IMG/VR virus record: IMGVR_UViG_2541047795_000004
Length of the DNA stretch: 44,950 nt
From: a virus
Taxonomy: Duplodnaviria; Heunggongvirae; Uroviricota; Caudoviricetes
Reading direction: 5' to 3' (one strand)
The notes beneath the pieces were generated by a model. That model worked only from the letters and a program-made list of their open reading frames with translations, ran no database searches and was not told the DNA's origin. Numbering within the stretch: position 1 is the stretch's first letter; every line of letters begins with the position of its first letter. The translations under genes were made by a program, and so were the position numbers. This document shows positions 1-44,950 of this stretch, piece after piece.

Positions 1-1236
1 CTACGATAACCGCGCATTCAACATGGCTATCTGTTCGTCGTTCATGTCATCAATCCACATACCGTAAATTTCATACACCATCTGCGCAGTTTCATGCCCC
101 ATTTGGCTGGCTATAAATGCCGGGTTCGCTCCTGCCGTCAACAGCCAGCAGGCAAAAGTATGCCGCGTATGGTACGGATTACGGCGGCGAATACCAGCAC
201 GTTTTACTGCTGCATTCCACCTTGCCCCCAAACTGCTTACCGAGTAATAAGGTTTTTGTTTTCCGTTACACACCCTGGGCATGAAAACAAAATGCAGTTT
301 TTGCTTTTCGGTTCTGCCGTACTCCCGATGATAAAAGGTGATTTCGCTTTTGCGATGATGCCCGGTCAGTTTGTATTGCTCCTTCAGTGCTTCAAGAGCA
401 GGCTGCAGTAGTGTTACTGTTCGGATCCCGGCATTTGTTTTTGGGGGACCGAACATATCAAGTATCGTCAGGTTTCTTCTGACATTCACTATTCCCTTTT
501 CGAGATCCACATCCTCCCACGCCAGAGCTGCCAGTTCCCCGTGACGAAGTCCTGAGTAAACGGCAAATTTCCACAAGTTCTGGCTCTGTCCTTTTTCACT
601 TTCCATTAATGCATTGAATTCTGTTTTAGATAACGGATCAGGCTTTATTCTGTTTCGCTGTAATTTTTTTACTCCTTCAAATGGTTTAGTTGATATAAAT
701 CCCGACTGATACGCAAAACGCAACAGCGAACAGAGCAGGGCGATATAGTTATCAACTGTGCGCACGGTTCTTCCTTTTTTGTTGGATCTTGGATTATCCA
801 GGTAAAGCGTTTCTCCATGCAGCAGTTCATTCCGGTAGTTTAAGATATCGCTATAACGAATATGTGATATCGGGGTACTTTCACAAATTATTATTCTGAG
901 TGTTTTTAATTGTGATTTCGTTTTCTTCATTGTGTTTGTTGTTAACTCTGTCTCTTTAATTTTTGTCCAGATATCACAAAGCTCTCCGAACGTTTTTATG
1001 ACTCTCGTTGTCACCATTTTTGCCCCAGTGCTGGACTGGGGAAAACGTCTTAAATACTCAAATTCACCGGAGTTTATTTCATGAACTATCAGCGATCTTA
1101 AATTTCCGGCCTTTTTAATATTACTGTTTGTAATCTCCCAGCCTTTTAATGTTTCCCGACATCGTTTTCCTCGAAACATGAACCAGATGCGAATGTATCT
1201 ACCTCTAATCTCGACACCTGTTGGTAATTTAGACAT
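1..1236 (-). CDS. intR: Phage tyrosine integrase (Rac IntR-like), complete; stop codon at 1-3
   Basis: 411-aa ORF with a C-terminal tyrosine-recombinase catalytic region (HTRHTFACWLLTAGANP); sits at the prophage end next to an excisionase-like gene. Confidence 0.9.
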   Translation of the reverse strand: MSKLPTGVEIRGRYIRIWFMFRGKRCRETLKGWEITNSNIKKAGNLRSLIVHEINSGEFEYLRRFPQSSTGAKMVTTRVIKTFGELCDIWTKIKETELTTNTMKKTKSQLKTLRIIICESTPISHIRYSDILNYRNELLHGETLYLDNPRSNKKGRTVRTVDNYIALLCSLLRFAYQSGFISTKPFEGVKKLQRNRIKPDPLSKTEFNALMESEKGQSQNLWKFAVYSGLRHGELAALAWEDVDLEKGIVNVRRNLTILDMFGPPKTNAGIRTVTLLQPALEALKEQYKLTGHHRKSEITFYHREYGRTEKQKLHFVFMPRVCNGKQKPYYSVSSLGARWNAAVKRAGIRRRNPYHTRHTFACWLLTAGANPAFIASQMGHETAQMVYEIYGMWIDDMNDEQIAMLNARLS

Positions 1237-1237
1237 A

Positions 1238-1453
1238 TCATGAGTCTTTGATAAACTGATTTATCTTTGGATAGTTGTACCAGATAATCCCTCGTTTGCT
1301 GTCTGGCTTACCTAAAGGAGATACTCGTTTGAAGTGGAAGCCCTCCACCCAACAGTTCTGGCGGTATGCTTCAATTTGTCTGGCCCCCAGACCAGTGCGA
1401 AGCATCAGGCCGTATTCAACCATCCACTCTTCATTAAAGATTACTTGTGCCAT
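1238..1453 (-). CDS. xisR: Excisionase-like small protein (71 aa from the internal ATG; the ORF could extend to a TTG at 1477)
   Basis: Small ORF immediately upstream of int on the same strand; ATG at 1453 is preceded by a GAGGTGA Shine-Dalgarno. Family assignment rests on position and size. Confidence 0.55.
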
Positions 1454-1531
1454 CGCATCACCTCTGGCAGGCGCCAATGTTAGACTGAAATTGACGCCCG
1501 ATGTTGATTATTAATAATCAGCTATGAAGTT

Positions 1532-1741
1532 TTAATTTGAATACAATGCAATTCTCGAGGACTGAAGTTTCTCGCAATTAAAATTTATCAGTTTTACTTT
1601 CTGCTCTCTGGAAACGCCTGCTTCTTTTTTACCTGAGAGCATTTTTTCGCATTCTGATTTCGTTAGTTTAGATTTTGAATATCTTGTCCAGTTAGTAGGA
1701 GTGCCACCTTCCTTTTCAATAGTGGCGGTAATTTTATACAT
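1532..1741 (-). CDS. ydaC: Small hypothetical protein (YdaC-like), 69 aa
   Basis: ATG at 1741 preceded by GGAGGTG; start chosen inside the 93-aa ORF-track entry. Position between xis and lar matches the Rac layout as I recall it. Confidence 0.5.
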   Translation of the reverse strand: MYKITATIEKEGGTPTNWTRYSKSKLTKSECEKMLSGKKEAGVSREQKVKLINFNCEKLQSSRIALYSN

Positions 1742-1967
1742 GAACACCTCCATTATTATTTCCAGTGGTTCGTTTATTCCATCTTTCGAGTGCTTCTTTT
1801 TCACTTCCACCATAACCGGTTCGGGATTCGCATCCGTTACACTTCGCTCGGTAATATCCTGAAATGGCTTTCACCGTTACTGATGGACAACCACAAAATG
1901 GACATGGTTTAACATTGTCATATCTCATAATTTTTCTCATAAAAAATATTTCAAGTTGGCGGTGCAT
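1734..1967 (-). CDS. ralR: Lar/RalR-family restriction-alleviation zinc-finger protein (start may be an internal ATG at 1940 or 1928)
   Basis: Cys-rich motif KPCPFCG...CNGCES typical of the Lar family; overlaps the ydaC-like start by a few nt. Confidence 0.7.
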   Translation of the reverse strand: MHRQLEIFFMRKIMRYDNVKPCPFCGCPSVTVKAISGYYRAKCNGCESRTGYGGSEKEALERWNKRTTGNNNGGVHV

Positions 1968-1984
1968 TACACCGCCAGGCTGAA

Positions 1985-2794
1985 TTATTCCTCTGAATTA
2001 TCGATTACACTGTATTCCCCGGTTAATACAGAGGAATCTGCAGGATCGATTGTCAGTGGTTCCTTTTCATCCATTGATACTGCACGCTGGATCTCAATTG
2101 ATACGGGCAGATATTTGAACAGGCGACGAATAGCCGTTTTCTTTGCCATTTCTTCCCAGTGAGTTACCCACGGCCCGTTATTACCAGCTTTACTCAGGCT
2201 GCGCACCAGCTCAATCTGTTTGCGCGTCATAACTTCAAACTGAGTACCTCCGTCTTTCAGTCTTGCGACAGCATAGACGTGGGTAACCGGGGCATCTTCG
2301 TTTTCTCCCGGGCGGTGTATTAACTTTTCATCAAGGCCAAATTCGAAGCTAAACTCGTCACCTTCACGGACAACACGGGCTGACAGGCTGGCGATTTGAC
2401 CAGAACGGCGAGCCAGATCAATCATGCCGCGATAGCCAATGATTAGCTGAACGTTCTTTTTACCGCTCTTTTCGTTTTTATTACCAAAAGGCAGTAAATA
2501 TGCATGACCGAGGGCGCTACCTGGCTCAAGTCCGAGCTGTGAACACTGTACGATCGCACTGACAAAACTCATAGTGTCACAGTTTCCTAACGCCGGAACT
2601 TTACGAATTTCTGTGGTGGCGATACGGATCATACGTTCAGCCGTCATATGGCGTGGAAGAGCTGCTGCCAGTTGCTCTTTCATTGATGGCTGGTTAATAA
2701 AACTAATCACGTCGCTATTTTTAACTGCTGCTGGTGCACGGTTTCCCTGAGTTTTTTGCAGATCGGCTTTTGCGATTGGTGGTTGCTTAGTCAT
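1985..2794 (-). CDS. recT: RecT single-strand annealing recombinase, 269 aa
   Basis: Translation from [26 protein letters not shown] onward matches RecT as I remember it; ATG at 2794 has an AAGGA Shine-Dalgarno 8 nt upstream; overlaps the recE stop. Confidence 0.93.
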
Positions 2795-5387
2795 TTGCAT
2801 ATTCCTTAGCCCAGCGGGGCAGTGATAATGTCTTAATAGCTGGCCATTCATCGGTATTCAGGCAGTCAGACAGGGTTCGCAGATTGCGGTGATATTCCTG
2901 TTGACCTGCCAGTTTTGCTTCTTCGCCCATCATGAAAATTTCAACCGGATAACGTCCGCATTCAATAGTTGTGCTGGCAACCAGAAAAACGAAAGTTGGC
3001 TGCACTCCAAACTGTGCTTCATAACCGTCACTGTAGAATGCATCCTGAACGTGATAGCGGTAGTCGTAATAAGCGGTTTTGAATCGTTGAATATCCGCCG
3101 TAGTTTTCACGTCCATGATCCAGTGAAATTCAGGGATAATTTTGTCCGGACGGCACCGACACAAAATTCCTGTTTCAGGATCTTTCCAGTAAATTGATGA
3201 TTCAGCGTGTCCGGCGCTTTCAACAAGCCATTGCCCCAGCGGCAAAGCCATAACGCTTTGATACATGAGTTCAATTTTCCGGCCTTCTTCCGCAGTGATA
3301 ACCGTTTTTCCTGTGCTTGCGCATTCCATCAGAAACGCTTTCTCTTCTTCTTTTCCGGCGTTTGTACGGCGGTTAAATTCAGGTGCTACGATAAAGCGGT
3401 TACTGAATTCTTCCGGTTCAAGTACCCGGCAGTGGAAAGCAGTTCCTAAATCGAGCGTTTTTGTCTTTGTGGTGTCCACGGGGGCATTTTTACGCCACAA
3501 ATATAGTGCCGGAGTATCAGCAATGTCATCGAGCTGAGACTTACTGATACCGGGACCCGCGTGGTAATTCTCATTCGAAATTCCGTAATAAATACCTGGC
3601 TCTATGTCTTCTACGATTACGGGATCTGCGACTTCGCCAGTTTCATCACTGCAATCGCGATGCGGATCGCTGCCAGCATTCTCATTGTGCGGATGTTCAG
3701 CGCCTTCCATTTCCTCCGGATCATTTTCCTTAGCTTCAACCTGACTCTCTTCATCGAATGTTTCCTGGTATGTTGCGTCGCCCATCACCGCACCACAGTC
3801 AGGGCAGTTATCCCCGCCAGTCTGGCCGCAGGCATTGCAGGCTATTTCCGGTTCCTGTTGCACTACTGGCTCAGGTTGATTCATATCTGGGCTGGTTTTT
3901 TCCGTTTCTGGCTGGTTCTGGTACACACAATCGCGAGTCTGGATCCCCTTTACCCATTTCGGATCGTTCGGGTCGCTAATTCCGTCAACAAATTCACCAC
4001 GTGATGCAGCAAGCAATTTATCGGCATCGACAGGATTTTTTGATGGAATGTTTTTCCGGGCTTCATGGAGTTCTGCCCGCAGTTCCTGATATTTCGCATC
4101 AACAGAATTTACCTGTGACTGAGCATCCAGCGGCTGCGTGTCCTGATGATGTTCAGTTGCGTCCGGTTCCATTGTTTCAGCCTCTCCCTGTTCAACTGCC
4201 GTTGTTCCAGATGGTTGCGGTTTTTCTTCATCATCCTGTTTTCCTTCTTCTGTTACTCGCTGCGGCATCGGGGCAGAGGAGCGACCGCAGGCAATATCCA
4301 CGATTTCCGGATCAGGGTTGGCATGATCGGTTTCAGTCAGTGCTTTGTTCAGATATTCAGTGACGTGCGCGGGGATGACCTCGATCCCAATTGGTGCTTC
4401 TTTTACGGACGCAACCACGATGGCGCGGGAATAATCCAGCCCGCCAGGCATGGTGATGAATTTGTCGCGGAAAACAGAAAAGGGCGGTTTATTTTCAGCG
4501 ATAATTTCCTCAATGCGTTTAGCGTGTGCCGGATGAAGGTTATAGATGTCCAGATCCATTGAACGGGCCAGTACGCCAGTGGCTACGTCGCGCGCCAGTG
4601 ACGTCAGATCGTGTACGAAACCTTCGCCGCGATCGGTGAGGTTTCCGCCGCCAGCATTAGCACCGGAAGCCGTGCGAGTGATGTGTGAAACACGATTACC
4701 CTTCATCCACTCTTTTGTCAGCAGTCCTCGATCGGTGTAGTCAGCGTTCAGGTATGCTTCGAAAAAAGCAGTTATCAGTCCCAGGTTTGAATTACCAGGA
4801 TTAGGGAAAACTTTGTCAGTGTCACGAACCAGTTTGTGGAGTTCGCGAATTTCCAGCGGGTCGAGCAGGCTGGTTTTGTGGGAAACAGCCAGGGCAGTAA
4901 CAGCCGGTAGTTCTTCAGCCCGAGCAATGTGTAATGCCTGGAGTCCGTCGCGTGAAACGTGCGTTACCGGTTTTTCGCTGCCGTGTTGAGCAAGCCAACG
5001 AATGGGCAGTTCCTGGCCAGAAATTGGGAGTAGCATATTCTCCTCAATCTCAGTCATGTCTTCGCCGTTGACGTTGGTATTGCCTTGATAGTGAGCGTTG
5101 TCTGGTGCTGCTCCCGGTTTTAGTTCCCATGTCATGGAGTCTTTGCTGAGTTGATAGCGTTCACTCCAGGTAAAATCGATCTCACCTTCAGCGGGCAGGT
5201 CATTAACGACAGGAAAATTCGTGGCAACAGCTTTAAAATAGCTGCTCAGTTTTTTACCTGACTTAACGATCAGGTAGTCCAGAGTGGCACAGGTCGATTC
5301 AAAATCGTTGCTTGCCCACAGGACGACGTCAGGTTCACCGGATGATTTTTTCGCTTTCCGTAACAGGAAGAGTGGTTTTGTGCTCAT
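2787..5387 (-). CDS. recE: RecE exonuclease VIII, 866 aa
   Basis: 866-aa ORF whose C-terminal region ([22 protein letters not shown]...) matches RecE as recalled; sits upstream of and overlaps recT. Confidence 0.93.
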
Positions 5388-5488
5388 TGTTTTTTAACCT
5401 CAACTCAGATTAAAATTCGTTTTGTTCAGTGAATGATCTTGCCGGATACACACTGTTCATAGCCTGCGCCATACGCAGGCTATTTCTT

Positions 5489-5764
5489 TCAGATTTCACC
5501 TTTTAATTTCATTGCAATTAGAGTTGCCAGAAATTCGGCTTTTTTTTCTGCGGGCAGATTCTTTCCGATATGCACCAGGCACATTTTTTTGACACCTTCA
5601 TCAAGTGTTTTTACGTTGCCTGATGGACCATCGATATCAACCACAGTGAATGGGGTTTCTTTATTTTCTGTTTTAATTACGTAGCCAATGCGCTTTCCTT
5701 CCAGATTCACCTCGTGAACAATGTCATCGGTAGTTACAACAGTGGCTTCATAATTGGTAATCAT
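5489..5764 (-). CDS. racC: RacC-like small protein, 91 aa
   Basis: Start at MITNYEATVVTTDD with an AAGGAG Shine-Dalgarno; position upstream of recE. Confidence 0.75.
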   Translation of the reverse strand: MITNYEATVVTTDDIVHEVNLEGKRIGYVIKTENKETPFTVVDIDGPSGNVKTLDEGVKKMCLVHIGKNLPAEKKAEFLATLIAMKLKGEI

Positions 5765-5838
5765 GTTTTTCTCCTTAATTAAGGTTGAGCGAATACCTGC
5801 CATTTCTGGCATAAATTCAGTTTCGAATAGTCAATTAA

Positions 5839-6009
5839 TTAAAGTTCATGTGCCATCTGGTCTTTTTCGGCACAAGCTTCACTGCAATATTTTCTCGGTT
5901 CGTCTTTTGATAAAATCCCGTGCATGAAGTGAAGCATTCTTTCAATAGCTTTGCTTTCTTCAACGTCTTTTTTGCAAAGGTGGTAAGCACATTTTATTTT
6001 CTTAGTCAT
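5839..6009 (-). CDS. ydaE: YdaE-like Cys-rich small protein, 56 aa (below the ORF-track size cut-off)
   Basis: Hand-translated minus-strand [59 protein letters not shown]; its ATG overlaps the kilR stop as TGATG (6007-6011). Confidence 0.6.
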   Translation of the reverse strand: MTKKIKCAYHLCKKDVEESKAIERMLHFMHGILSKDEPRKYCSEACAEKDQMAHEL

Positions 6010-6230
6010 CACCATGACTCCGCCTTTACAGGTAAACCATCACGACCGAGGAAGACTTTAATCATGCGGTCAGTAATGCATGTTTTTGTGGTCAGGTTAC
6101 GAATATATAGTTTTCGCTTTTTAATATTGTTTGCCGAGGCAATATATGTCCGGCCTTCATGAAGAACATAATCGCCAGGAGTCACACACTGACGTGGTAT
6201 TTCATCAGTTCCGAAGTGATGTGCAATCAT
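6009..6230 (-). CDS. kilR: KilR-like cell-division inhibitor, 73 aa
   Basis: Sequence from [29 protein letters not shown] matches KilR as recalled; GGAGA Shine-Dalgarno before the ATG at 6230. Confidence 0.8.
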
Positions 6231-6671: not shown

Positions 6672-7160
6672 ATGTTGGATGTATTTACTCCATTGTTGAA
6701 ACTTTTTGCTAACGAGCCACTCGAAAGACTTATGTATACGATTATCATTTTTGGTCTCACTCTCTGGCTGATACCGAAAGAGTTTACTGTCGCATTCAAT
6801 GCTTATACTGAAATACCTTGGCTCTTTCAGATTATCGTTTTTGCCTTTTCTTTCGTGGTCGCCATTTCCTTCTCAAGATTGCGAGCACATATTCAAAAGC
6901 ATTATTCATTACTACCAGAGCAACGAGTATTGCTTCGTTTATCTGAGAAAGAAATCGCTGTATTTAAAGATTTCCTTAAAACAGGAAATCTTATTATCAC
7001 TTCTCCTTGCCGTAACCCGGTTATGAAAAAATTAGAACGGAAGGGCATCATTCAACATCAGAGTGATAGCGCAAACTGTTCTTATTATCTCGTCACCGAA
7101 AAATACTCCCATTTTATGAAGTTATTCTGGAACAGCAGGAGTAGACGTTTTAATCGTTAG
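6672..7160 (+). CDS. sieB: Superinfection exclusion protein B, 162 aa, membrane protein
   Basis: Sequence from MLDVFTPLLKLFANEPLERLMYTIIIFGLTLWLIPKEF with hydrophobic helices; the ORF-track N-terminal extension from 6549 is probably not translated. Confidence 0.85.
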   Translation: MLDVFTPLLKLFANEPLERLMYTIIIFGLTLWLIPKEFTVAFNAYTEIPWLFQIIVFAFSFVVAISFSRLRAHIQKHYSLLPEQRVLLRLSEKEIAVFKDFLKTGNLIITSPCRNPVMKKLERKGIIQHQSDSANCSYYLVTEKYSHFMKLFWNSRSRRFNR

Positions 7161-7312
7161 CTTACTGTGTGCTTCTCCAACCATCGGCGCGCACCAGTTT
7201 CGGTTTTAAATGTTTTGCTTTTGGTATACGTCATGGCAGTGAACGTTCCATCCTGGTTGGGGAACACGCCGCACACCAGGGATTCGTTGTTGCCGAGGTC
7301 GATTTTTTGCAT
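7157..7312 (-). CDS. ydaF: YdaF-like small protein, 51 aa (hand-translated)
   Basis: Minus-strand ORF MQKIDLGNNESLVCGVFPNQDGTFTAMTYTKSKTFKTETGARRWLEKHTVS; converges on the sieB end. Confidence 0.5.
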   Translation of the reverse strand: MQKIDLGNNESLVCGVFPNQDGTFTAMTYTKSKTFKTETGARRWLEKHTVS

Positions 7313-7322
7313 TTTGCGAATC

Positions 7323-7457
7323 TCACATCTTGTTGCTACGTATAGCGACTTCTGCCTGCCAGAGATCCCAGTCGTTGCTGCGTAAAGCCTGCACAGCCTG
7401 GTTGTAAGTGATACCGCAACAATCCATCAAATACTGAACTACTTCGTAATGCACCAT
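7323..7457 (-). CDS. ydaG: YdaG-like small protein, 44 aa (hand-translated)
   Basis: Minus-strand ORF MVHYEVVQYLMDCCGITYNQAVQALRSNDWDLWQAEVAIRSNKM between racR and ydaF. Confidence 0.5.
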   Translation of the reverse strand: MVHYEVVQYLMDCCGITYNQAVQALRSNDWDLWQAEVAIRSNKM

Positions 7458-7744
7458 CTTATCTATCCCCTTAACGCCGGGTGGCGGAACTAACTGCTGC
7501 ACTGCAAAATTTGAATCCCGCCGTCATGTTCATACGCCTCGGGCTGGCTACTTAACCCCTGACCACTGCCTGGTAACTCGAAGTATTGCCCGGCGTTCTG
7601 TGGGGCGGGGTGGGTTGGTAGGTATATAATGTACTTTGTGTTCATCATTGTAAAGTACTTTAAGTACATTTTATGTATAAAAAAATGAGACGGGATAAAG
7701 TGAAGCACAAACCCGGAGGGGGACGCTACCGGATTTATGCTGGT

Positions 7745-10537: not shown

Positions 10538-10559
10538 TTTTTACCGGGAGGAAATTTTA

Positions 10560-38105: not shown

Positions 38106-38444
38106 GTGGCTAATACGGAAGAATTTCACTGGTTACCAGAGGATGGAATGAAAACAGAAAATAAACCATCGATAAAAACTGTAAGATTTGGTGATGGTTA
38201 TGAGCAACGAAGTCCAAATGGACTTAATCATTCTCTGCGCGTTTTCACCTGTGATTTCAAAGTTGAGGCGAATGAACGTGATTCATTTGAAAAATTTTTA
38301 GCCCGGCATGAAGGCTATAAATCTTTTTTTTGGCGCCCGCCGGGTATTAACAGAAAAATCAGAGTGGTGTGTCGAACGTGGTCAGCGACAGAACATATCA
38401 CCTATACCGATTTTTCGTGTCAGTTTGACGAAGTGGTGATCTGA
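38106..38444 (+). CDS. Minor tail protein M (lambda gpM-like); GTG start
   Basis: 112-aa ORF after the tape-measure gene, overlapping its stop; lambda tail gene order. Confidence 0.8.
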   Translation: MANTEEFHWLPEDGMKTENKPSIKTVRFGDGYEQRSPNGLNHSLRVFTCDFKVEANERDSFEKFLARHEGYKSFFWRPPGINRKIRVVCRTWSATEHITYTDFSCQFDEVVI

Positions 38445-39142
38445 TGCAGGACATACGACAGGAAACACTGAATGAATGCATCCGTGTGGAGCAGACGGCC
38501 AGCGTGGTGCTCTGGGAAATTGATCTGACAGAGGTCGGTGGGGAGCGTTACTTTTTCTGCAATGAGCAGAATGAAAAAGGTGAACCGGTTACCTGGCAGG
38601 GGCGAAAGTATCAGGCGTACCCCATTCAGGGAAGCGGCTTTGAGATGAACGGTAAGGGCAGCAGCGCACGTCCCACACTTAAGGTATCTAACCTGTATGG
38701 CATGGTCACCGGGATGGCCGAAGACCTGCAGAGTCTGGTCGGCGGAACGGTGGTCAGGCGTAAGGTTTATGCCCGTTTTCTGGATGCGGTGAACTTCATC
38801 AACGGAAACAGCGAAGCCGATCCGGAGCAGGAGGTGATCAGCCGCTGGCGCATCGAGCAGTGCAGCGAACTGAGCGCGGTCAGTGCCTCCTTTGTACTGT
38901 CCACGCCGACGGAAACGGACGGCGCTGTTTTTCCGGGGCGCATCATGCTGGCCAACACCTGCACCTGGACCTATCGCGGTGATGAGTGCGGTTATCACGG
39001 TCCGGCGGTCGCGGATGAATATGACCAGCCGACATCCGAAATCACGAAGGATAAATGCAGCAAATGCCTGAGTGGCTGTAAGTTCCGCAATAATGTCGGC
39101 AACTTTGGCGGCTTCCTTTCCATTAACAAACTTTCGCAGTAA
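38444..39142 (+). CDS. Minor tail protein L (lambda gpL-like)
   Basis: 232-aa ORF with C-terminal Cys cluster (CSKCLSGCKF); lambda gene order. Confidence 0.85.
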   Translation: MQDIRQETLNECIRVEQTASVVLWEIDLTEVGGERYFFCNEQNEKGEPVTWQGRKYQAYPIQGSGFEMNGKGSSARPTLKVSNLYGMVTGMAEDLQSLVGGTVVRRKVYARFLDAVNFINGNSEADPEQEVISRWRIEQCSELSAVSASFVLSTPTETDGAVFPGRIMLANTCTWTYRGDECGYHGPAVADEYDQPTSEITKDKCSKCLSGCKFRNNVGNFGGFLSINKLSQ

Positions 39143-39147
39143 ATCCC

Positions 39148-39891
39148 ATGACAGAGACAGAATCAGCGATTCTGGCGCACGCCCGGCGATGTGCGCCAGC
39201 GGAGTCGTGCGGCTTCGTGGTGAGAACGTCGGAAGGGGAAAGATATTTTCCCTGCGTGAATATCTCCGGTGAGCCGGAGGATTATTTCCAGATGGCTCCG
39301 GAGGACTGGCTGCGGGCAGAGATGCAGGGTGAGATTGTGGCGCTGGTCCACAGCCACCCCGGTGGCCTGCCCTGGCTGAGTGAGGCTGACCGGCGGCTGC
39401 AGGTGCAGAGTGATTTGCCATGGTGGCTGGTCTGCCGGGGGGCGATTCATAAATTCCGCTGTGTGCCGCATCTTACCGGGCGGCGCTTTGAGCACGGGGT
39501 GACGGATTGTTACACGCTGTTCCGGGACGCTTACCATCTGGCGGGGATTGAGATGCCGGATTTTCATCGCGAGGATGACTGGTGGCGTAACGGCCAGAAT
39601 CTCTATCTGGATAATCTGGAGGCCACAGGGCTGTATCAGGTGCCGTTGTCATCAGCACAACCGGGTGATGTGCTGCTGTGCTGTTTTGGTTCATCGGTGC
39701 CGAATCATGCCGCCATTTACTGTGGTGACGGCGAGCTGCTGCACCATATTCCTGAACAACTGAGTAAACGAGAGAGGTATACCGACAAATGGCAGCGACG
39801 CACACACTCCCTCTGGCGTCACCGGGCATGGCGCGAATCTGCCTTTACGGGGATTTACAACGATTTGGCCGCCGCATCGACCTGCGTGTGA
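39148..39891 (+). CDS. Tail assembly protein K (lambda gpK-like; MPN/JAMM plus NlpC/P60)
   Basis: HSHP motif (LVHSHPGG) and a Cys-containing C-terminal domain. Confidence 0.85.
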   Translation: MTETESAILAHARRCAPAESCGFVVRTSEGERYFPCVNISGEPEDYFQMAPEDWLRAEMQGEIVALVHSHPGGLPWLSEADRRLQVQSDLPWWLVCRGAIHKFRCVPHLTGRRFEHGVTDCYTLFRDAYHLAGIEMPDFHREDDWWRNGQNLYLDNLEATGLYQVPLSSAQPGDVLLCCFGSSVPNHAAIYCGDGELLHHIPEQLSKRERYTDKWQRRTHSLWRHRAWRESAFTGIYNDLAAASTCV

Positions 39892-40436
39892 AAACGGGGG
39901 CCGAAGCAGTCCGGGCGCTGACCACACAGCTTCCGGCGTTTCGTCAGAAACTGAGCGACGGCTGGTATCAGGTACGCATTGCCGGGCGTGATGCAGGTGA
40001 AACTGAATTATCAGCCCGTCTTAATGAACCGCTGGCAAATGGTGCCGTGATCCACATTGTGCCGCGTCTGGCGGGAGCCAAAAGTGGCGGTCTTTTTCAG
40101 GCTGTGCTGGGGGCGGCGCTGATTGCGGTGGCATGGTGGAACCCTGCAGGTTGGTTGGGGGCTGCCGCAATTACAGGAATGTATGGTGCGGGGGCCAGTA
40201 TGGTGCTCGGTGGTGTGGCGCAGATGCTGGCACCGAAAGCCAGAACTCCCCGTACACAGACAACGGATAACGGCAAACAGAACACCTATTTCTCCTCACT
40301 GGATAACATGGTTGCCCAGGGCAATGTTCTGCCGGTTCTGTACGGTGAAATGCGCGTGGGGTCACGGGTGATTTCGCAGGAGATCAGCACGGCAGATGAA
40401 GGAGATGGTGGTCAGGTTGTGGTGATTGGTCGTTGA
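39789..40436 (+). CDS. Tail assembly protein I (lambda gpI-like)
   Basis: Begins MAATHTLPLASPGMARICLYGDLQRFG like lambda I as recalled; overlaps the end of K in another frame, as in lambda. Confidence 0.85.
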   Translation: MAATHTLPLASPGMARICLYGDLQRFGRRIDLRVKTGAEAVRALTTQLPAFRQKLSDGWYQVRIAGRDAGETELSARLNEPLANGAVIHIVPRLAGAKSGGLFQAVLGAALIAVAWWNPAGWLGAAAITGMYGAGASMVLGGVAQMLAPKARTPRTQTTDNGKQNTYFSSLDNMVAQGNVLPVLYGEMRVGSRVISQEISTADEGDGGQVVVIGR

Positions 40437-40496
40437 TGCAGAATGTTTTGTGTGAAACCGCCTCAGGGCGGTTTTGTCGTTTCTGGAGCGTGAGGA

Positions 40497-43400
40497 ATGG
40501 GTAAAGGCAGCAGTAAGGGGCATACCCCGCGCGAAGCGAAGGACAACCTGAAATCATCCCAGATGCTGAGCGTGATAGACGCCATCAGTGAAGGGCCGAT
40601 TGAAGGTCCGGTGGACGGATTAAAAAGTGTGCTGCTGAACAGTACGCCGGTGCTGGACAGTGAGGGGAATACCAATATCGCCGGTGTCACGGTGGTGTTC
40701 CGGGCAGGTGAGCAGGAGCAGACACCGCCGGAGGGATTTGAATCCTCCGGCTCCGAGACGGTGCTGGGTACGGAAGTGAAGTACGACACGCCGATTACCC
40801 GGACCATCACGTCTGCAAACATCGACCGTCTGCGCTTTACCTTCGGTGTGCAGGCACTGGTGGAAACCACCTCAAAGGGGGACCGGAATCCGTCGGAAGT
40901 CCGCCTGCTGGTTCAGATACAGCGTAACGGTGGCTGGGTGACGGAAAAAGACATCACCATTAAGGGCAAAACCACCTCGCAGTATCTGGCCTCGGTGGTG
41001 GTGGATAACCTGCCTCCGCGCCCGTTCAATATCCGGATGCGCAGGATGACACCGGACAGCACCACAGACCAGCTGCAGAACAAAACGCTCTGGTCGTCAT
41101 ACACCGAAATCATCGATGTGAAACAGTGCTACCCGAACACGGCACTGGTCGGCGTGCAGGTGGATTCGGAGCAGTTCGGCAGCCAGCAGGTGAGCCGTAA
41201 TTATCATCTTCGCGGGCGCATTCTGCAGGTGCCGTCGAACTATAACCCGCAGACGCGGCAATACAGCGGTATCTGGGACGGAACGTTTAAGCCGGCATAC
41301 AGCAACAACATGGCCTGGTGTCTGTGGGATATGCTGACCCATCCGCGCTACGGCATGGGGAAACGTCTTGGTGCGGCAGATGTGGATAAATGGACGCTGT
41401 ATGTCATCGGCCAGTATTGCGACCAGTCGGTGCCGGACGGTTTTGGCGGCACGGAGCCGCGCATCACCTGTAATGCGTACCTGACCACGCAGCGTAAGGC
41501 GTGGGATGTGCTCAGTGATTTCTGCTCGGCGATGCGCTGTATGCCGGTATGGAACGGGCAGACGCTGACGTTCGTGCAGGACCGACCGTCGGATAAGGTG
41601 TGGACCTATAACCGCAGTAATGTGGTGATGCCGGATGATGGCGCGCCGTTCCGCTACAGCTTCAGCGCCCTGAAGGACCGCCATAATGCCGTTGAGGTGA
41701 ACTGGATTGACCCGGATAACGGCTGGGAAACGGCAACAGAGCTTGTGGAGGACACGCAGGCCATTGCCCGTTACGGTCGTAACGTCACGAAGATGGATGC
41801 CTTTGGCTGTACCAGCCGGGGGCAGGCGCACCGCGCCGGGCTGTGGCTGATTAAAACGGAACTGCTGGAAACGCAGACCGTGGATTTTAGCGTCGGCGCA
41901 GAAGGGCTTCGCCATGTACCGGGCGATGTTATTGAAATCTGTGATGATGACTATGCCGGTATCAGCACCGGTGGTCGTGTGCTGGCGGTGAACAGCCAGA
42001 CCCGGACGCTGACGCTCGACCGTGAAATCACGCTGCCATCCTCCGGTACCACGCTGATAAGCCTGGTTGACGGAAGTGGCAATCCGGTCAGCGTGGAGGT
42101 TCAGTCCGTCACCGACGGCGTGAAGGTAAAAGTGAGCCGTGTTCCTGACGGTGTTGCTGAATACAGCGTATGGGGGCTGAAGCTGCCGACGCTGCGCCAG
42201 CGACTGTTCCGCTGCGTGAGTATCCGTGAGAACGACGACGGCACGTATGCCATCACCGCCGTGCAGCATGTACCGGAAAAAGAGGCCATCGTGGATAACG
42301 GGGCGCACTTTGACGGCGAACAGAGTGGCACGGTGAACGGTGTCACGCCGCCAGCGGTGCAGCACCTGACCGCAGAAGTCACTGCAGACAGCGGGGAATA
42401 CCAGGTGCTGGCGCGCTGGGACACACCGAAGGTGGTGAAGGGCGTGAGCTTCCTGCTCCGTCTGACCGTAACAGCGGACGACGGCAGTGAGCGGCTGGTC
42501 AGCACGGCCCGGACGACGGAAACCACATACCGCTTCAGGCAGCTGGCTCTGGGAAATTACAGTCTGACAGTCCGGGCGGTAAATGCGTGGGGGCAGCAGG
42601 GCGATCCGGCGTCGGTATCGTTCCGGATTGCCGCACCGGCAGCACCATCGCGGATTGAGCTGACGCCGGGCTATTTTCAGATAACCGCCACGCCGCATCT
42701 TGCGGTTTATGATCCGACTGTACAGTTTGAGTTCTGGTTCTCGGAAAATCGGATTGCGGATATCAGGCAGGTTGAAACCAGCGCACGTTATCTTGGCACG
42801 GCGCTGTACTGGATAGCCGCCAGTATCAATATCAAACCGGGCCATGATTATTATTTTTACGTTCGCAGTGTGAACACCGTCGGCAAATCGACATTCGTGG
42901 AGGCTGTCGGCCGGGCGAGCGATGATGCGGAAGGTTACCTGGATTTTTTCAAAGGCCAGATAACCGAATCCCATCTCGGCAAGGAGCTGCTGGAAAAAGT
43001 CGAGCTGACGGAGGATAACGCCAGCAAACTGGAGGAGTTTTCGAAAGAGTGGAAGGACGCCAACGATAAATGGAATGCCATGTGGGGCGTCAAAATTGAG
43101 CAGACCGAAGACGGCAGGCATTATGTCGCGGGGCTTGGCCTTAGTATGGAGGATACGGAGGAAGGCAAACTGAGCCAGTTCCTGGTTGCCGCTAACCGTA
43201 TCGCGTTTATTGACCCGGCAAACGGGAATGAAACGCCGATGTTTGTGGCGCAGGGCAACCAGATATTCATGAACGAAGTGTTCCTGAAGTATCTGACGGC
43301 TCCCACCATTACCAGTGGCGGCAATCCTCCGGTATTTTCCCTGACACCGGACGGGCGGCTGACGGCGAAAAATGCCGATATCAGCGGTAACGTGAATGCG

Positions 43401-43892
43401 AACTCCGGGACGCTCAATAATGTCACGATTAACGAGAACTGTCGGGTTCTGGGAAAACTGTCCGCGAACCAGATTGAAGGCGATCTCGTTAAAACAGTGG
43501 GCAAAGCTTTCCCCCGGGACTCCCGTGCACCGGAGCGGTGGCCATCAGGGACTATTACCGTCAGGGTTTATGACGATCAGTCGTTTGACCGGCAAATTGT
43601 TATTCCAGCGGTGGCTTTCTGCGGTGCCAGACATGAGCGGGAGAATAGCGATACTTATTCGTCATGCCGCCTGATAGTGAAGAAAAACGGGGCTGAAATT
43701 TATAACCGAACGGCTCTGGATAATACTCTGATTTACACGGGTGTTATTGATATGCCTGCAGGCAGTGGTGTAATGACACTGGAGTTTTCTGTATCAGCAT
43801 GGTGGGTAAATGGCTGGTATCCCACAGCAAGTATCAGCGATTTGCTGGTTGTGGTGATGAAGAAAGCCACTACAGGCATCACGATTAGCTGA
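40497..43892 (+). CDS. Host specificity protein J (central tail fibre, lambda gpJ-like), 1131 aa
   Basis: Size, position and close resemblance to lambda J as recalled. Confidence 0.9.
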
Positions 43893-43959
43893 ATTTTATA
43901 ACCCAGATACGGGCACCAGAAATGGTGCCTTTTTTATTGCAGAAAAGCGAGAGGTAATT

Positions 43960-44559
43960 ATGCGTAAATTATGTGCTGTTATTCTGTCCGCAGTAGTCTG
44001 GCTGGTTGCCGCTGGTACGCCAGCGAGCGCAGCAGAGCATCAGTCCACACTAAGCGCCGGGTATCTTCAGACCCATACTGATATGCCAGGCAGTGATGAC
44101 CTGAAGGGCATTAACGTGAAATACCGTTATGAATTTACGGACACGCTGGGGCTGGTGACGTCATTCAGTTATGCAGGATACAAGAATCGTCAGCTGACCC
44201 GTTACAGCGATACCCGCTGGCATAAAGATTCCGTGCGTAACCGCTGGTTCAGCGTGATGGCGGGGCCGTCTGTGCGCGTGAATGAATGGTTCAGCGCGTA
44301 TGCGATGGCGGGTATGGCTTACAGCCGTGTTTCGACTTTTTCCGGGGATTACCTCCGCGTAACTGACAACAAGGGGAAAACGCACGATGTGCTGACCGGA
44401 AGTGATGACGGTCGCCACAGCAACACGTCTCTGGCGTGGGGGGCTGGCGTGCAGTTTAACCCGACCGAATCCGTGGCCATTGATATTGCTTATGAAGGCT
44501 CCGGCAGTGGTGACTGGCGCACTGACGGTTTCATCGTGGGTGTCGGTTATAAGTTCTGA
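43960..44559 (+). CDS. lom: Lom outer-membrane protein (Ail/Lom family)
   Basis: N-terminal signal peptide (AVILSAVVWLVAAGTPASAA) and a C-terminal ...GYKF beta-barrel ending; downstream of J as in lambda. Confidence 0.85.
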   Translation: MRKLCAVILSAVVWLVAAGTPASAAEHQSTLSAGYLQTHTDMPGSDDLKGINVKYRYEFTDTLGLVTSFSYAGYKNRQLTRYSDTRWHKDSVRNRWFSVMAGPSVRVNEWFSAYAMAGMAYSRVSTFSGDYLRVTDNKGKTHDVLTGSDDGRHSNTSLAWGAGVQFNPTESVAIDIAYEGSGSGDWRTDGFIVGVGYKF

Positions 44560-44585
44560 TTAGCCAGGTAACACAGTGTTATGAC

Positions 44586-44613
44586 AGCCCGCCGGTTCAG
44601 GCGGGCTTTTTTG
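44586..44613 (+). terminator. Intrinsic terminator after lom
   Basis: Hairpin AGCCCGCC-GGTTCA-GGCGGGCT followed by T6. Confidence 0.6.
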
Positions 44614-44623
44614 TGGAGTGGAT

Positions 44624-44950
44624 ATGGCAGCAGTAAAAATCTCAGGTGTGCTGAAAGATGGTGCGGGAAAACCAATACAGAACTGCACTATTCAACTGAA
44701 GGCAAAGCGTAACAGCACCACGGTACTGGTGAACACGGTGGCCTCTGAAAATCCGGATGAAGCCGGGCGTTACAGCATGGATGTTGAGTATGGCCAGTAC
44801 AGCGTCACCCTGCTGGTTGAAGGTTTTCCGCCTTCACATGCCGGGACCATTACCGTCTATGAAGGTTCCAGACCAGGTACGCTGAATGATTTTCTCGGTG
44901 CCATGACGGAAGATGATGTCATGCCGGAGGCATTGCGTCGTTTTGAGGAA
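44624..44950 (+). CDS. Side tail fibre protein, N-terminal fragment; runs off the window end
   Basis: ATG at 44624; translation MAAVKISGVLKDGAGKPIQNCTIQLKAKRNSTTVLVNTVASEN... resembles lambda Stf N-terminus; no stop inside the window. Confidence 0.7.
   Translation, partial: MAAVKISGVLKDGAGKPIQNCTIQLKAKRNSTTVLVNTVASENPDEAGRYSMDVEYGQYSVTLLVEGFPPSHAGTITVYEGSRPGTLNDFLGAMTEDDVMPEALRRFEE

What the first reader, a model, noticed from the sequence alone, without database searches (positions are those of the whole stretch)
1..44950. Mosaic architecture: a largely intact counterpart of a normally decayed Rac-type prophage
The left arm (int through the DnaC-like gene) and trkG follow the gene order I recall for the defective Rac prophage of E. 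coli K-12. Here the nin-like region, Q, tRNAs, complete lysis cassette, full packaging, head and tail genes are all present, the tail module being lambda-like and the lysis module phage-21-like. Only two lesions are visible (the A7 frame break and the IS1 insertion), making this a useful reference for reconstructing the ancestral phage and for locating cargo slots.
Basis: inference. Interest (0 to 1): 0.4.

Follow-up and report, generated by a model that had tools for sequence, protein, structure and literature searches.

The report
Full-length Rac-type prophage, recently disabled
This window is most of a full-length E. coli prophage of the Rac family, the complete form of what strain K-12 keeps only as a three-times-deleted remnant; two recent mutations have disabled it, and such prophages are already known, so the finding is correct but ordinary.

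Summary
The window is 44.95 kb of a ~52-kb lambdoid prophage integrated at ttcA, the Rac site. It is 100% identical to more than a dozen complete E. coli genomes except for one IS1.

K-12 Rac aligns to it in collinear blocks at 99.3-99.9% identity. K-12 differs by exactly three internal deletions (8.3, 11.6 and 8.3 kb), each with a 2-bp microhomology junction that cuts through a gene which is full-length here.

Both reported lesions are real. A +1 A (A6 to A7, 9304-9310) breaks the replication-initiator gene. An IS1 (35406-36173) splits the tape-measure gene. I found no other broken gene in the window.

- Only the tail tip (L-K-I-J) is lambda-like. The portal-to-capsid genes are HK639-like; the terminase, connector and proximal tail genes match neither lambda nor HK639.
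- The immunity region differs from K-12's.
- The window lacks both att sites and the right arm.
- The full-length form is not rare: 677 of 5426 genomes hold at least 80% of the right half, against 351 with the K-12 collapsed form.

Full-sized and active Rac-like prophages are already published (Jobling; KingRac; Sp10/CP-933R). Interest is low. The cargo includes a type II PANGU-like cassette.

The parts
1..1453 (-). intR (1-1236) and xisR (1238-1453): integrase and excisionase of the ttcA-integrating Rac family
   Evidence: IntR is 99.8% and XisR 100% identical in amino acids to K-12. The attL core lies about 100 bp left of window position 1.
1532..1928 (-). rcbA and ralR (type I toxin); the RalA antitoxin sRNA is on the + strand at 1557-1735
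   Evidence: Both proteins are 100% identical to K-12. Rfam RalA scores 225 bits.
1985..6230 (-). recT, recE, racC, ydaE, kilR (recombination and kil block)
   Evidence: 98.6-100% aa identity to K-12. Part of the 7620-nt block that is 99.86% identical to K-12.
6672..7502 (.). sieB (+, 6672-7160), ydaF and a ydaG-like gene (-)
   Evidence: 98-100% aa identity to K-12.
7745..8917 (.). Immunity region: HTH repressor (7745-8164, -), cro-like gene (8244-8498, +), ydaT (cII-like, 8495-8917, +). The repressor and cro genes are NOT homologous to K-12 racR/ydaS.
   Evidence: No nucleotide or tblastn match to K-12 for the repressor or cro-like gene; YdaT is 93.6% identical in amino acids. Pfam HTH_3 and HTH_17.
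8995..9784 (+). ydaU-like replication-initiator gene, broken by a +1 A in the A-run at 9304-9310 (A7; the intact allele is A6 and encodes 262 aa)
   Evidence: Sequence and ORFs. PGAP flags it 'frameshifted'. The A6 allele matches 100% in other genomes and is annotated intact in D217-5.
8963..9381 (+). Three copies of the palindrome GTAACGC-N5-GCGTTAC (8963, 9155, 9363) in and just upstream of the initiator gene: candidate origin or initiator-binding sites
   Evidence: 3 matches against 0.03 expected by chance. The function is inferred by analogy with the lambda ori iterons inside gene O.
9791..11724 (+). ydaV (DnaC-like helicase loader, 9791-10537), DUF1627 (ydaW counterpart, 10560-11285), DUF977 (11302-11724)
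   Evidence: NCBIfam PRK12377 and DnaC. Pfam. YdaV is 96% identical to K-12.
10974..19290 (.). Interval missing from K-12 Rac (deletion 1, 8317 bp): 3' part of DUF1627, DUF977, cargo, hok/sok, DUF1367/1364/1133, tRNAs, S, R, 5' end of Rz
   Evidence: blastn block boundaries and the 2-bp 'TA' junction.
11885..12403 (+). Second antiterminator-Q-family gene (low G+C), at the edge of the cargo insertion
   Evidence: Pfam Phage_antitermQ 1.3e-33. Absent from related Rac-like prophages. Travels with the cassette in 29 genomes.
12434..14897 (-). Two-gene cargo cassette. A NA37/YejK-like nucleoid-associated protein gene (13839-14897) overlaps by 29 nt a 477-aa gene (12434-13867) with an acidic N-domain and C-terminal transmembrane segments. 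Resembles type II PANGU (Pag2A/Pag2B).
   Evidence: Pfam NA37 1.2e-12. Charge and hydrophobic segments. Conserved gene pair in distant bacteria. Description of the system in bioRxiv 10.64898/2026.04.06.716658. G+C about 0.35.
15058..15382 (+). sok antisense RNA family match (15058-15232) and the hok toxin gene (15227-15382)
   Evidence: Rfam sok 99 bits. PGAP names it Hok/Gef.
15846..17274 (+). nin-equivalent region: DUF1367, DUF1364 (YbcO-like), DUF1133 (the Q-like late regulator directly upstream of the late region)
   Evidence: Pfam. No similarity to lambda nin or Q, or to Q21. Called 'q' in the Rac-SA53 annotation.
17628..17781 (+). tRNA-Thr(TGT) and tRNA-Gly(TCC)
   Evidence: ARAGORN; Rfam tRNA.
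18561..19734 (+). Phage-21-type lysis cassette: S (pinholin, dual start MKSM), R (SAR endolysin), Rz, with Rz1 embedded at 19490-19675
   Evidence: 92.4% nt to phage 21. S is 84.5%, R 98.8% and Rz 94% identical in amino acids.
19872..21329 (+). trkG potassium-transporter moron, between Rz and the ParB-like gene
   Evidence: 99.6% aa identity to K-12 TrkG. NCBIfam TrkH family. The same slot holds the LT-IIa toxin genes in D217-5 and Rac-SA53.
21467..23367 (+). ParB-like gene (the full-length form of K-12 ynaK), a 310-aa gene (phrog_842) and a 69-aa gene upstream of the terminase
   Evidence: PHROGs. K-12 retains only the first 89 codons of the ParB-like gene.
21721..33278 (.). Interval missing from K-12 Rac (deletion 2, 11558 bp): 3' part of the ParB-like gene through the 5' end of ydaY, i.e. 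all packaging, head, connector and tube genes
   Evidence: 2-bp 'AA' junction.
23371..30578 (+). Packaging and head genes: terS, terL, portal (DUF4055), SPP1-gp7-like head morphogenesis protein, scaffold, P22-coat-family major capsid protein, and a 58-aa gene
   Evidence: PHROGs. Portal 69%, scaffold 67% and capsid 75% aa identity to phage HK639. No lambda or phage 21 similarity.
30582..33119 (+). Head-tail adaptor, head closure, tail completion, tail terminator and tail tube genes
   Evidence: PHROGs. Full length against L006 and L007. No lambda similarity.
33168..33937 (+). Tail assembly chaperone pair (G/GT-like). ydaY ends at 33629; a -1 slippery heptamer A_AAA_AAG lies at 33617-33623; the -1 frame stays open to 33937.
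   Evidence: Three-frame translation. phrog_313 tail assembly chaperone and phrog_1189.
34103..38113 (+). Tail tape-measure gene, split by IS1 into 34103-35405 and 36175-38113 (uninterrupted and 1077 aa in EC-1639)
   Evidence: 29% aa identity to lambda H.
35406..36173 (-). IS1 (768 bp, insA/insB ORFs present). The 8-bp target duplication ATCAACCG is at 35398-35405 and 36175-36182, with one extra G at 36174.
   Evidence: This exact junction is absent from 5426 complete genomes.
35038..44162 (.). Interval missing from K-12 Rac (deletion 3; 9125 bp here, about 8.35 kb without IS1): 3' two-thirds of the tape-measure gene through the 5' part of lom
   Evidence: 2-bp 'CA' junction.
38106..43892 (+). 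Tail-tip genes M, L, K, I, J. From 38422 onward they are lambda- and phage-21-like.
   Evidence: 92.5% nt to lambda and to phage 21 over 38422-43442. L is 94%, K 86-95%, I 76%, J 89% and M 42% identical in amino acids.
43960..44950 (+). lom (43960-44559) and the first 327 nt of the side-tail-fibre gene (44624 to the end of the window)

Best explanation
The window is the left 45 kb of a lambdoid temperate prophage integrated at ttcA. The prophage is about 52.2 kb without IS1 and about 53 kb with it. It belongs to the Rac family and has the full-length architecture from which E. coli K-12's 23-kb defective Rac was carved by three illegitimate (2-bp microhomology) deletions.

It is a mosaic:
- The Rac left arm (int/xis, ralR/RalA, recET, kilR, sieB) is almost identical to K-12's.
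- The immunity pair and the initiator N-terminus are different from K-12's.
- Replication uses a YdaU/DnaC-type module.
- A DUF1367/DUF1364/DUF1133 region stands in place of nin-Q.
- The lysis cassette is of phage 21 type, with a pinholin and a SAR endolysin.
- The portal-scaffold-capsid genes resemble HK639, and a non-lambda tail shaft is joined to a lambda/21-like tail tip.
- Morons sit in the usual slots: a PANGU-like cassette, hok/sok, trkG and lom, plus sitABCD just outside the window.

This particular copy is very probably unable to make infectious particles. A +1 A frameshift truncates the replication initiator, and an IS1 splits the tape-measure gene. Both events are recent. The frameshift is shared by roughly 20 genomes, including those that match the window at 100%. 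The IS1 insertion is unique to the source strain.

Shown: the architecture, the identities, the lesions and the deletion map. Inferred: loss of infectivity, and deletion as the direction of change in K-12.
For: - Location and identity: 100% identity to EC-1639 and more than a dozen other complete genomes, between ttcA and uspF. The 26-bp att core is present at both ends in EC-1639.
- Relation to K-12: collinear blocks at 99.3-99.9% identity, and three deletion junctions that cut inside ORFs.
- Module assignment: Pfam, PHROGs and NCBIfam; lambda and phage 21 comparisons; HK639.
- Lesions: A7 against A6 alleles; IS1 and its target duplication.
- Integrity of the rest: every other gene is full length against two related prophages, and the chaperone -1 frameshift signal is intact.
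- Literature: full-sized Rac-like prophages (PMC5917428); the active Rac-like phage KingRac, which replaced K-12 Rac in vivo (PMC6731689).
Against: - No experiment. Loss of infectivity is inferred from gene disruption alone.
- The A7 run could be partly bypassed by transcriptional slippage.
- The right arm and both att sites were examined only in a near-identical genome, not in the source strain.
- Regulatory lesions (promoters, operators, the packaging site) cannot be seen with these tools.
- The prophage is a relative of K-12 Rac's ancestor, not the ancestor itself: its immunity region, part of its replication module and its right arm differ from K-12's.
Confidence: 0.88

Rival explanations
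1. The full-length form is secondary. A decayed Rac remnant like K-12's was rebuilt by recombination with, or replacement by, an incoming lambdoid phage, so the window says little about the ancestor of K-12 Rac.
For: - Replacement of K-12 Rac by a resident Rac-like phage was seen directly in the mouse gut (PMC6731689).
- The prophage blocks shared with K-12 are 6-7 times less diverged (0.24%) than 19.6 kb of adjacent chromosome (1.55%), so exchange at this locus is recent.
- The immunity region and right arm differ from K-12's.
Against: - The K-12 junctions lie inside ORFs and leave fragments of the ParB-like gene, the chaperone, the tape-measure gene, Rz and lom. These fragments are 96-100% identical in amino acids to the corresponding parts of the full-length genes here. 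Such fragments can arise only by deletion from a full-length arrangement.
- Recent exchange explains the low divergence, but it does not reverse the direction of change.
Confidence: 0.08
2. The prophage is still a functional, inducible phage. The two lesions are tolerated, bypassed, or complemented by co-resident prophages.
For: - All other genes are intact.
- int and xis are virtually identical to the excision-proficient K-12 genes (PMC4632033).
- A7 runs allow some transcriptional slippage (general knowledge).
- The host genomes carry several other lambdoid prophages: 4-5 matching places per record.
Against: - The tape-measure protein is needed for siphovirus tail assembly, and here it is cut at codon 435 of 1077 by IS1.
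- The initiator needs a +1 shift, which is not a known programmed signal. The -1 frame terminates after 14 codons.
- Intact A6 alleles exist, so A7 is a derived mutation.
Confidence: 0.05
3. An assembly or sequencing artefact: a homopolymer error at A7, or a chimeric join of two prophages.
For: Homopolymer runs are error-prone on some sequencing platforms.
Against: - The same 25-kb left half, including A7, is 100% identical in more than a dozen independently assembled complete genomes.
- The right half is identical apart from IS1, and the IS1 has a proper target duplication.
Confidence: 0.01

Closest known systems
Cryptic prophage Rac of E. coli K-12 MG1655 (NC_000913.3, 1411899-1434958)
   Same: - Same integration site (ttcA) and the same 26-bp att core.
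- intR through ydaG is 99.86% identical over 7.6 kb.
- The Rz-trkG-ynaK block is 99.3% identical and the ydaY-tmpR block 99.9%.
- ydaT, ydaV and ydaW are 90-92% identical.
   Different: - K-12 lacks three internal segments (8.3, 11.6 and about 8.3 kb). These hold the late regulator, the tRNAs, holin and endolysin, and all packaging, head and most tail genes.
- K-12 has racR/ydaS immunity, an IS5 in lomR, and a pinR/ynaE right arm instead of sitABCD.
Full-sized Rac-like prophages that encode LT-II enterotoxin (Jobling 2016; e.g. the prophage of E. coli D217-5, NZ_CP076268.1; Rac-SA53, KU052037)
   Same: - D217-5 shares the whole backbone: the left arm, an intact ydaU-like initiator (the A6 allele), ydaV, DUF1627, DUF977, DUF1367/1364/1133, and the same head and tail genes at 87-99% aa identity.
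- Its moron slots are in the same positions.
   Different: - D217-5 carries eplBA and LT-IIa toxin genes and a different lysis cassette (two holins and a GH108 endolysin), and it has no trkG.
- Rac-SA53 shares only the left arm and early region. Its structural module is unrelated.
KingRac, an active Rac-like prophage at ttcA (PMC6731689)
   Same: It is a full-length (46.8 kb), inducible, particle-forming lambdoid prophage at the Rac site, and it can replace K-12 Rac.
   Different: KingRac is functional, whereas the window's copy carries two disabling lesions.
Phage lambda and phage 21 (NC_001416, OL657228)
   Same: - The overall lambdoid gene order.
- Tail-tip genes L-K-I-J are 92.5% identical in nucleotides to both phages.
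- Rz is 94% identical.
- The S-R-Rz/Rz1 cassette is 92.4% identical in nucleotides to phage 21.
- The right arm of the identical prophage carries sitABCD 97.9% identical to phage 21's.
   Different: There is no detectable similarity in int/xis, recombination, immunity, replication, nin/Q, terminase, head, connector, tube or chaperone genes. The tape measure is only 29% identical in amino acids.
Phage HK639 (NC_016158)
   Same: Portal (69%), head morphogenesis protein (50%), scaffold (67%), major capsid protein (75%) and the small 58-aa protein (62%), all as aa identity. This is the closest match for these genes among the phage-collection records that are not themselves Rac-type prophage sequences.
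   Different: The terminase, connectors, tail shaft, tail tip (about 30%), early genes and lysis genes are unrelated or only distantly related.
Type II PANGU defence system (Pag2A nucleoid-associated sensor + Pag2B membrane effector; bioRxiv 10.64898/2026.04.06.716658). This applies to the cargo cassette only.
   Same: A bicistronic operon with a YejK/NA37-like protein gene first, then a partner protein with an acidic N-terminal domain and C-terminal transmembrane segments. The pair is conserved across distant bacteria and sits in mobile or defence contexts.
   Different: Sequence homology to the published Pag2A and Pag2B could not be checked, because no accession or sequence was available. 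Activity is untested. The cassette gave no PADLOC v2 hit.

Membership tests
Rac / Rac-like prophage (ttcA-integrating lambdoid prophage) | Integration into the 5' end of ttcA, with the 26-bp core TTGTTCAGGTTGTATTGTTCTTTCTT repeated at attL and attR | tested here: met
   The core is present once at each end in EC-1639, which is 100% identical over the window (L001 position 2196, L003 position 8947). The window itself starts about 100 bp inside attL, so this was tested on the identical genome and not on the window.
Rac / Rac-like prophage (ttcA-integrating lambdoid prophage) | Left-arm synteny intR-xisR-rcbA-ralR(RalA)-recT-recE-racC-ydaE-kilR-sieB, with high identity to K-12 | tested here: met
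   99.86% nt identity over 7620 nt and 98.6-100% aa identity per gene. RalA found by Rfam.
Rac / Rac-like prophage (ttcA-integrating lambdoid prophage) | RacR/YdaS immunity pair of K-12 Rac | tested here: not met
   There is no nucleotide or protein match. A different HTH repressor and cro-like pair occupies the position. The literature treats immunity as variable among Rac-like prophages (PMC5700373), so this bears on homo-immunity with K-12 Rac and not on family membership.
Rac / Rac-like prophage (ttcA-integrating lambdoid prophage) | The K-12 remnants (rzpR/rzoR, trkG, ynaK, ydaY, tmpR/ynaA, lomR) map collinearly onto full-length genes | tested here: met
Phage 21-type lysis cassette | Class II pinholin with the dual start Met1/Met4, a SAR endolysin with an N-terminal Gly/Ala-rich membrane segment, and Rz with Rz1 embedded | tested here: met
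   S begins MKSMDK and is 84.5% identical to S21. R is 98.8% identical to R21, including [18 protein letters not shown]. Rz1 is 61 aa and lies inside Rz. Function was not assayed.
Lambda-type tail | Homology to lambda Z-U-V-G/T-H-M-L-K-I-J across the whole tail module | tested here: not met
   Only L, K, I and J are close (76-94% aa). M is 42% and H 29%. There is no hit for the terminator, tube or chaperone. The tail is a hybrid: a non-lambda shaft joined to a lambda-like tip.
IS1 | A 768-bp element with terminal inverted repeats GGTAATGAC.../...CATCACC, insA and insB ORFs, and an 8-9-bp target duplication | tested here: met
   The 8-bp duplication is ATCAACCG. One extra G at 36174 is unexplained.
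Tail assembly chaperone G/GT programmed -1 frameshift | Two overlapping ORFs between the tube and tape-measure genes, joined by an X_XXY_YYZ slippery heptamer near the end of the first | tested here: met
   A_AAA_AAG lies at 33617-33623, two codons before the ydaY stop. The -1 frame stays open for 105 more codons. Hits to phrog_313 (tail assembly chaperone) and phrog_1189. Frameshifting itself was not assayed.
Type II PANGU (cargo cassette) | A YejK/NA37-like nucleoid-associated protein encoded in an operon (gap under 40 bp) with the effector gene | tested here: met
   Pfam NA37 at 1.2e-12, covering 316 of 325 profile positions. The two genes overlap by 29 nt. The same pairing is seen in Citrobacter, Methylomonas and Sphingomonas.
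Type II PANGU (cargo cassette) | An effector with an acidic N-terminal 'DMK' domain and a C-terminal transmembrane domain | tested here: inconclusive
   The N-terminal 340 aa have pI 5.2 (50 acidic against 40 basic residues). Hydrophobic segments lie at about 364-387 and 425-459. No structure was predicted and no sequence of Pag2B was available for comparison.
Type II PANGU (cargo cassette) | Protection against phages that degrade host DNA (e.g. T4), dependent on both genes | not testable with these tools
   This needs plaque assays.

The most novel reading that the evidence does not exclude
K-12's Rac may not be an ancient 'fossil' that has decayed in place for millions of years. It may instead be a recent deletion derivative of a still-circulating Rac-type phage almost identical to this one.

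The blocks that K-12 retains are 0.11-0.66% diverged from this prophage (28 differences in 11.8 kb). The adjacent 19.6 kb of chromosome is 1.55% diverged (303 differences). A shorter comparison, using 4.2 kb of immediate left and right flank (73 differences) against the same blocks, gave a Fisher test p of about 5e-22.

This would mean that Rac-site prophages are repeatedly replaced or homogenised between E. coli lineages, and then disabled again by small lesions such as the A7 frameshift and the IS1 seen here.
Probability: 0.45. Interest if true: 0.35.

Novelty: already known. Interest (0 to 1): 0.15.

Why it matters
The practical value is modest.

- **Deletion map.** The window and its IS1-free and A6-intact relatives give an exact base-level map of the three deletions that produced K-12 Rac. 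They also assign functions to K-12 leftovers: ynaK is the 5' third of a ParB-like gene; ydaY is the tail assembly chaperone with its -1 frameshift partner; ynaA/tmpR is the first 312 codons of the tape measure; rzpR is Rz lacking its first few codons.
- **Moron slots.** The comparison marks the slots of this phage family:
  - DUF977 to hok/sok: a PANGU-like cassette here, other cargo in relatives.
  - Q-like gene/tRNAs to S: empty here, the eplBA pertussis-like toxin genes in LT-II prophages.
  - Rz to the ParB-like gene: trkG here, LT-IIa genes elsewhere.
  - Chaperone to tape-measure gene.
  - Downstream of J: lom.
  - The b-region: sitABCD.
- **Early inactivation.** It is a clean example of the first steps of prophage inactivation.

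None of this is surprising to a phage genomicist, and full-sized and active Rac-like prophages are already in the literature.

Tried and rejected
- **Programmed frameshift at the A7 run: rejected.** The downstream frame needs a +1 shift, and the -1 frame stops after 14 codons. An A6 allele that encodes an uninterrupted 262-aa protein is the commoner form.
- **'Whole tail is lambda-like': rejected.** tblastn shows close similarity only for L to J.
- **'Head is lambda- or 21-like': rejected.** There were no hits. Portal to capsid are HK639-like.
- **Rac-SA53 as the nearest full-length relative: rejected.** It shares only the left arm and early genes.
- **Further broken genes: none found.** I compared every product with two related prophages. 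Regulatory defects remain invisible to these tools.
- **The source genome: not found.** I looked for the exact IS1 junction among 5426 complete genomes. Two genomes have an IS1 about 94 nt away in a related tape-measure gene.
- **Family searches on cargo and initiator.** PADLOC and NCBIfam gave nothing for the two cassette proteins and the upstream Q-family protein; NCBIfam and Pfam gave nothing for the repaired initiator.
- **Papers and supplements.** Jobling 2016 (PMC4957749) is not held. The PANGU preprint has no held supplement, so no Pag2A or Pag2B sequences were available.
- **Not pursued:** structure prediction of the 477-aa protein, a genome-wide phylogeny of the Rac blocks, and identification of the host sequence type.

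Full report
**What the window is.** ORF listing, tRNA search and composition show a lambdoid gene order. The left arm is on the minus strand and everything from about 8.2 kb rightward is on the plus strand. Megablast against 5426 complete E. coli genomes finds the first 25 kb at 100% identity and coverage in more than a dozen chromosomes, including EC-1639, Ecol_316, EcPNK004, THO-008 and MINF_7C. The last 25 kb is identical in the same genomes apart from one missing 0.78-kb segment.

In EC-1639 the region lies between ttcA and uspF. PGAP annotates it, in order, as:
- intR, xisR, rcbA, ralR, recT, recE, racC, ydaE, kilR, sieB, ydaF;
- two HTH regulators, ydaT, a frameshifted hypothetical gene, ydaV, DUF1627, DUF977;
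- a Q-family gene and two minus-strand genes, then hok;
- DUF1367, DUF1364, DUF1133, two tRNAs;
- essD/rrrD/Rz-like lysis genes, trkG, a ParB-like gene;
- terminase, portal, capsid and tail genes, gpJ, lom and tail fibres.

**Relation to K-12 Rac.** blastn of the MG1655 Rac region against the window gives collinear blocks:

| K-12 segment | Window | Identity |
|---|---|---|
| intR to ydaG | 1-7620 | 99.86% |
| ydaT | 8489-8915 | 92% |
| ydaU C-terminus, ydaV, ydaW | 9423-10672 | 90% |
| rzpR-trkG-ynaK | 19290-21720 | 99.3% |
| ydaY-ynaA | 33278-35037 | 99.9% |
| lomR | 44162-44375 | 96% |
| start of stfR | 44370-44946 | 91% |

Consecutive K-12 blocks abut with a 2-nt overlap. K-12 therefore lacks window 10974-19290, 21721-33278 and 35038-44162. 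The junction microhomologies are TA, AA and CA. Each junction falls inside a gene that is complete here: DUF1627/Rz, the ParB-like gene/chaperone, and tape measure/lom. The direction of change is deletion in the K-12 lineage. racR/ydaS and the 5' half of ydaU have no counterpart here, so the immunity region and the initiator N-terminus are of a different type.

**The ends.** The 26-bp att core of K-12 occurs once in ttcA, 101 bp left of window position 1, and once between sitA and uspF in EC-1639. This gives a prophage of about 52.2 kb. The window therefore holds neither att site nor the right arm. In EC-1639 that arm has the side tail fibre genes, a fragment of a tail-fibre assembly gene, and sitABCD. 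The sit operon is 97.9% identical to the one in the b-region of phage 21.

**Mosaic composition.**
- *Lambda and phage 21, nucleotide level.* Lambda matches only Rz (94%), window 38422-43442 (92.5%) and the start of stf. Phage 21 matches the same tail-tip segment plus the whole S-R-Rz cassette (92.4%).
- *Lambda and phage 21, protein level.* L is 94%, K 86-95%, I 76%, J 89%, M 42% and the tape measure 29% identical. Nothing is detectable for the terminator, tube, chaperone, connectors, head, terminase, early genes or Q.
- *Lysis proteins.* S has the S21 dual start MKSM, R is a SAR endolysin 98.8% identical to R21, and Rz1 is embedded in Rz.
- *Morphogenetic genes.* PHROGs assigns a complete set: terS, terL, portal, SPP1-gp7-like protein, scaffold, P22-coat-family capsid, adaptor, head closure, tail completion, terminator, tube, chaperone, tape measure and tip.
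- *Closest capsid match outside Rac-type prophage records.* HK639: capsid 75%, portal 69%, scaffold 67%.

'Phage-21-like lysis' is correct.

**Lesions.**
1. *Initiator frameshift.* The A-run at 9304-9310 (A7) splits the ydaU-like initiator gene into 123- and 183-codon ORFs. Removing one A gives a continuous 262-aa protein. A 120-nt A6 probe finds 65 genomes at 99% or better. Even sampling down the ranking indicates roughly 40 with exact A6 and roughly 20 with a single difference; the one checked by record span (UID2309220031, 121 bases) is A7. D217-5 carries the A6 allele, annotated as an intact 262-aa gene. The shift needed is +1, so this is a mutation and not a programmed signal.
2. *IS1.* It occupies 35406-36173 with an 8-bp duplication, after nt 1303 of the 3234-nt tape-measure gene. 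The exact junction is in none of the 5426 complete genomes.
3. *Everything else.* All other products are full length against the D217-5 and 683R6 prophages. The chaperone -1 frameshift signal (A_AAA_AAG, 33617-33623) and its 105-codon extension are intact.

**How common, how new.**
- At least 80% of window 20001-44950 is present in 677 genomes, and at least 80% of window 1-25000 in 58.
- The K-12 collapsed arrangement is in 351 genomes; the three K-12-type rows sampled were ET12567, GB2005 and C600. Over a thousand other genomes carry the trkG block with non-K-12 flanks.
- GenBank phage records already hold this architecture as predicted prophages: vB_EcoS-666R9, -683R6 and SPF_0923.
- Jobling described 'full-sized Rac-like prophages' carrying LT-II (PMC5917428). 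The D217-5 prophage is of that kind and shares the window's backbone and structural genes.
- KingRac is an inducible, particle-forming Rac-like prophage that replaced K-12 Rac in the mouse gut (PMC6731689).
- Sp10 and CP-933R are Rac-like prophages of O157:H7 (PMC4632033).

The finding is therefore correct but already known.

**Side observations.**
- *Divergence.* The blocks shared with K-12 are 0.24% diverged (28 of 11,811 nt). The left chromosomal flank is 1.55% diverged over 19.6 kb, with a range of 0.55-2.55% per 2 kb. This points to recent exchange at the locus and not to long vertical descent.
- *Cargo cassette.* The low-G+C cassette at 12434-14897 is a NA37/YejK-like gene overlapping by 29 nt a 477-aa gene with an acidic N-domain and transmembrane C-terminus. 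The pair recurs with the same overlap in Citrobacter, Methylomonas and Sphingomonas. It fits the description of type II PANGU. Related prophages carry other cargo at this position.
- *Moron slot.* trkG sits where the LT-IIa genes sit in the toxin phages.
- *Palindromes.* Three GTAACGC-N5-GCGTTAC palindromes (3 found, 0.03 expected) flank and lie within the initiator gene.

**Verdict.** Novelty: already known. Interest is low.

Noticed in passing
window 12434-14897 (- strand): A low-G+C two-gene cassette. A NA37/YejK-like nucleoid-associated protein gene overlaps by 29 nt a 477-aa gene with an acidic N-terminal domain and a transmembrane C-terminus. The pair is conserved with the same overlap in Citrobacter, Methylomonas and Sphingomonas, next to integrase, toxin-antitoxin or defence-like genes. 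It fits the recently described type II PANGU abortive-infection system. It gave no PADLOC v2 hit.
   Followed up: partly
window 11885-12403 (+): A second antiterminator-Q-family gene (PF06530, 1.3e-33) lies far upstream of the late region, at the edge of the cargo insertion and followed only by convergent genes. The gene directly upstream of the late region is the DUF1133 Q-like gene at 16732-17274. Whether the extra Q is functional or a relic of the recombination that brought in the cargo is open.
   Followed up: partly
window 33168-33937 (+), slippery site 33617-33623: ydaY, an 'uncharacterized protein' in K-12, is the tail assembly chaperone. It has a classic A_AAA_AAG -1 frameshift site two codons before its stop and a 105-codon -1 extension (the GT-like product). 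K-12 retains this site, because its deletion 2 ends at window 33278.
   Followed up: yes
window 8963-8981, 9155-9173, 9363-9381: Three perfect copies of the 19-bp palindrome GTAACGC-N5-GCGTTAC, spaced about 200 bp apart, just upstream of and inside the replication-initiator gene (3 found, 0.03 expected). They are probably initiator-binding or origin sites, as in lambda O. The A7 frameshift lies between the second and third copies.
   Followed up: partly
window 1-7620, 19290-21720, 33278-35037 compared with chromosomal flanks (L016/L017, L001-L003): The prophage blocks shared with K-12 are 0.11-0.66% diverged. The neighbouring 19.6 kb of chromosome is 1.55% diverged (per-2-kb range 0.55-2.55%). 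On shorter flanks (4.2 kb) a Fisher test gave p about 5e-22. The Rac-site prophage is much younger or more recently exchanged than its surroundings.
   Followed up: partly
window 19735-21466 (trkG slot) and 17782-18560 (tRNA-to-S gap): trkG occupies the Rz-to-ParB-like moron slot that holds the LT-IIa toxin genes in D217-5 and Rac-SA53. The 780-bp gap between the tRNAs and S, where those phages carry the eplBA toxin genes, has no annotated gene in the identical EC-1639 record.
   Followed up: partly
outside the window: L003 4483-8774 (EC-1639 right arm): The right arm of the identical prophage carries sitABCD, an iron/manganese transporter, 97.9% identical to the sit operon in the b-region of phage 21. 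It also has a truncated tail-fibre-assembly gene. This possible third lesion cannot be seen in the window.
   Followed up: partly
window 36174: There is one extra G between the end of IS1 (...CATCACC) and the second copy of the 8-bp target duplication. The element is therefore either 769 bp, or the duplication is 9 bp with one mismatch.
   Followed up: no
window 21467-23180 (+): The ParB-like gene upstream of the terminase scores 1e-38 against the N-terminal part of a PADLOC type II methyltransferase model. It is followed by a 310-aa phrog_842 protein of unclear role. Both are conserved in related prophages. Their role in packaging or anti-restriction is unknown.
   Followed up: no
window 41097-43121 (-) and 38420-39421 (-): Long antisense ORFs (674 and 333 aa) lie inside the high-G+C J and L/K region (G+C 0.57-0.59). 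They are most likely compositional artefacts and not genes.
   Followed up: no
window 41828: This is the single base difference (G here, A in EC-1639) in the 44.2 kb shared with EC-1639. It lies inside gene J.
   Followed up: no
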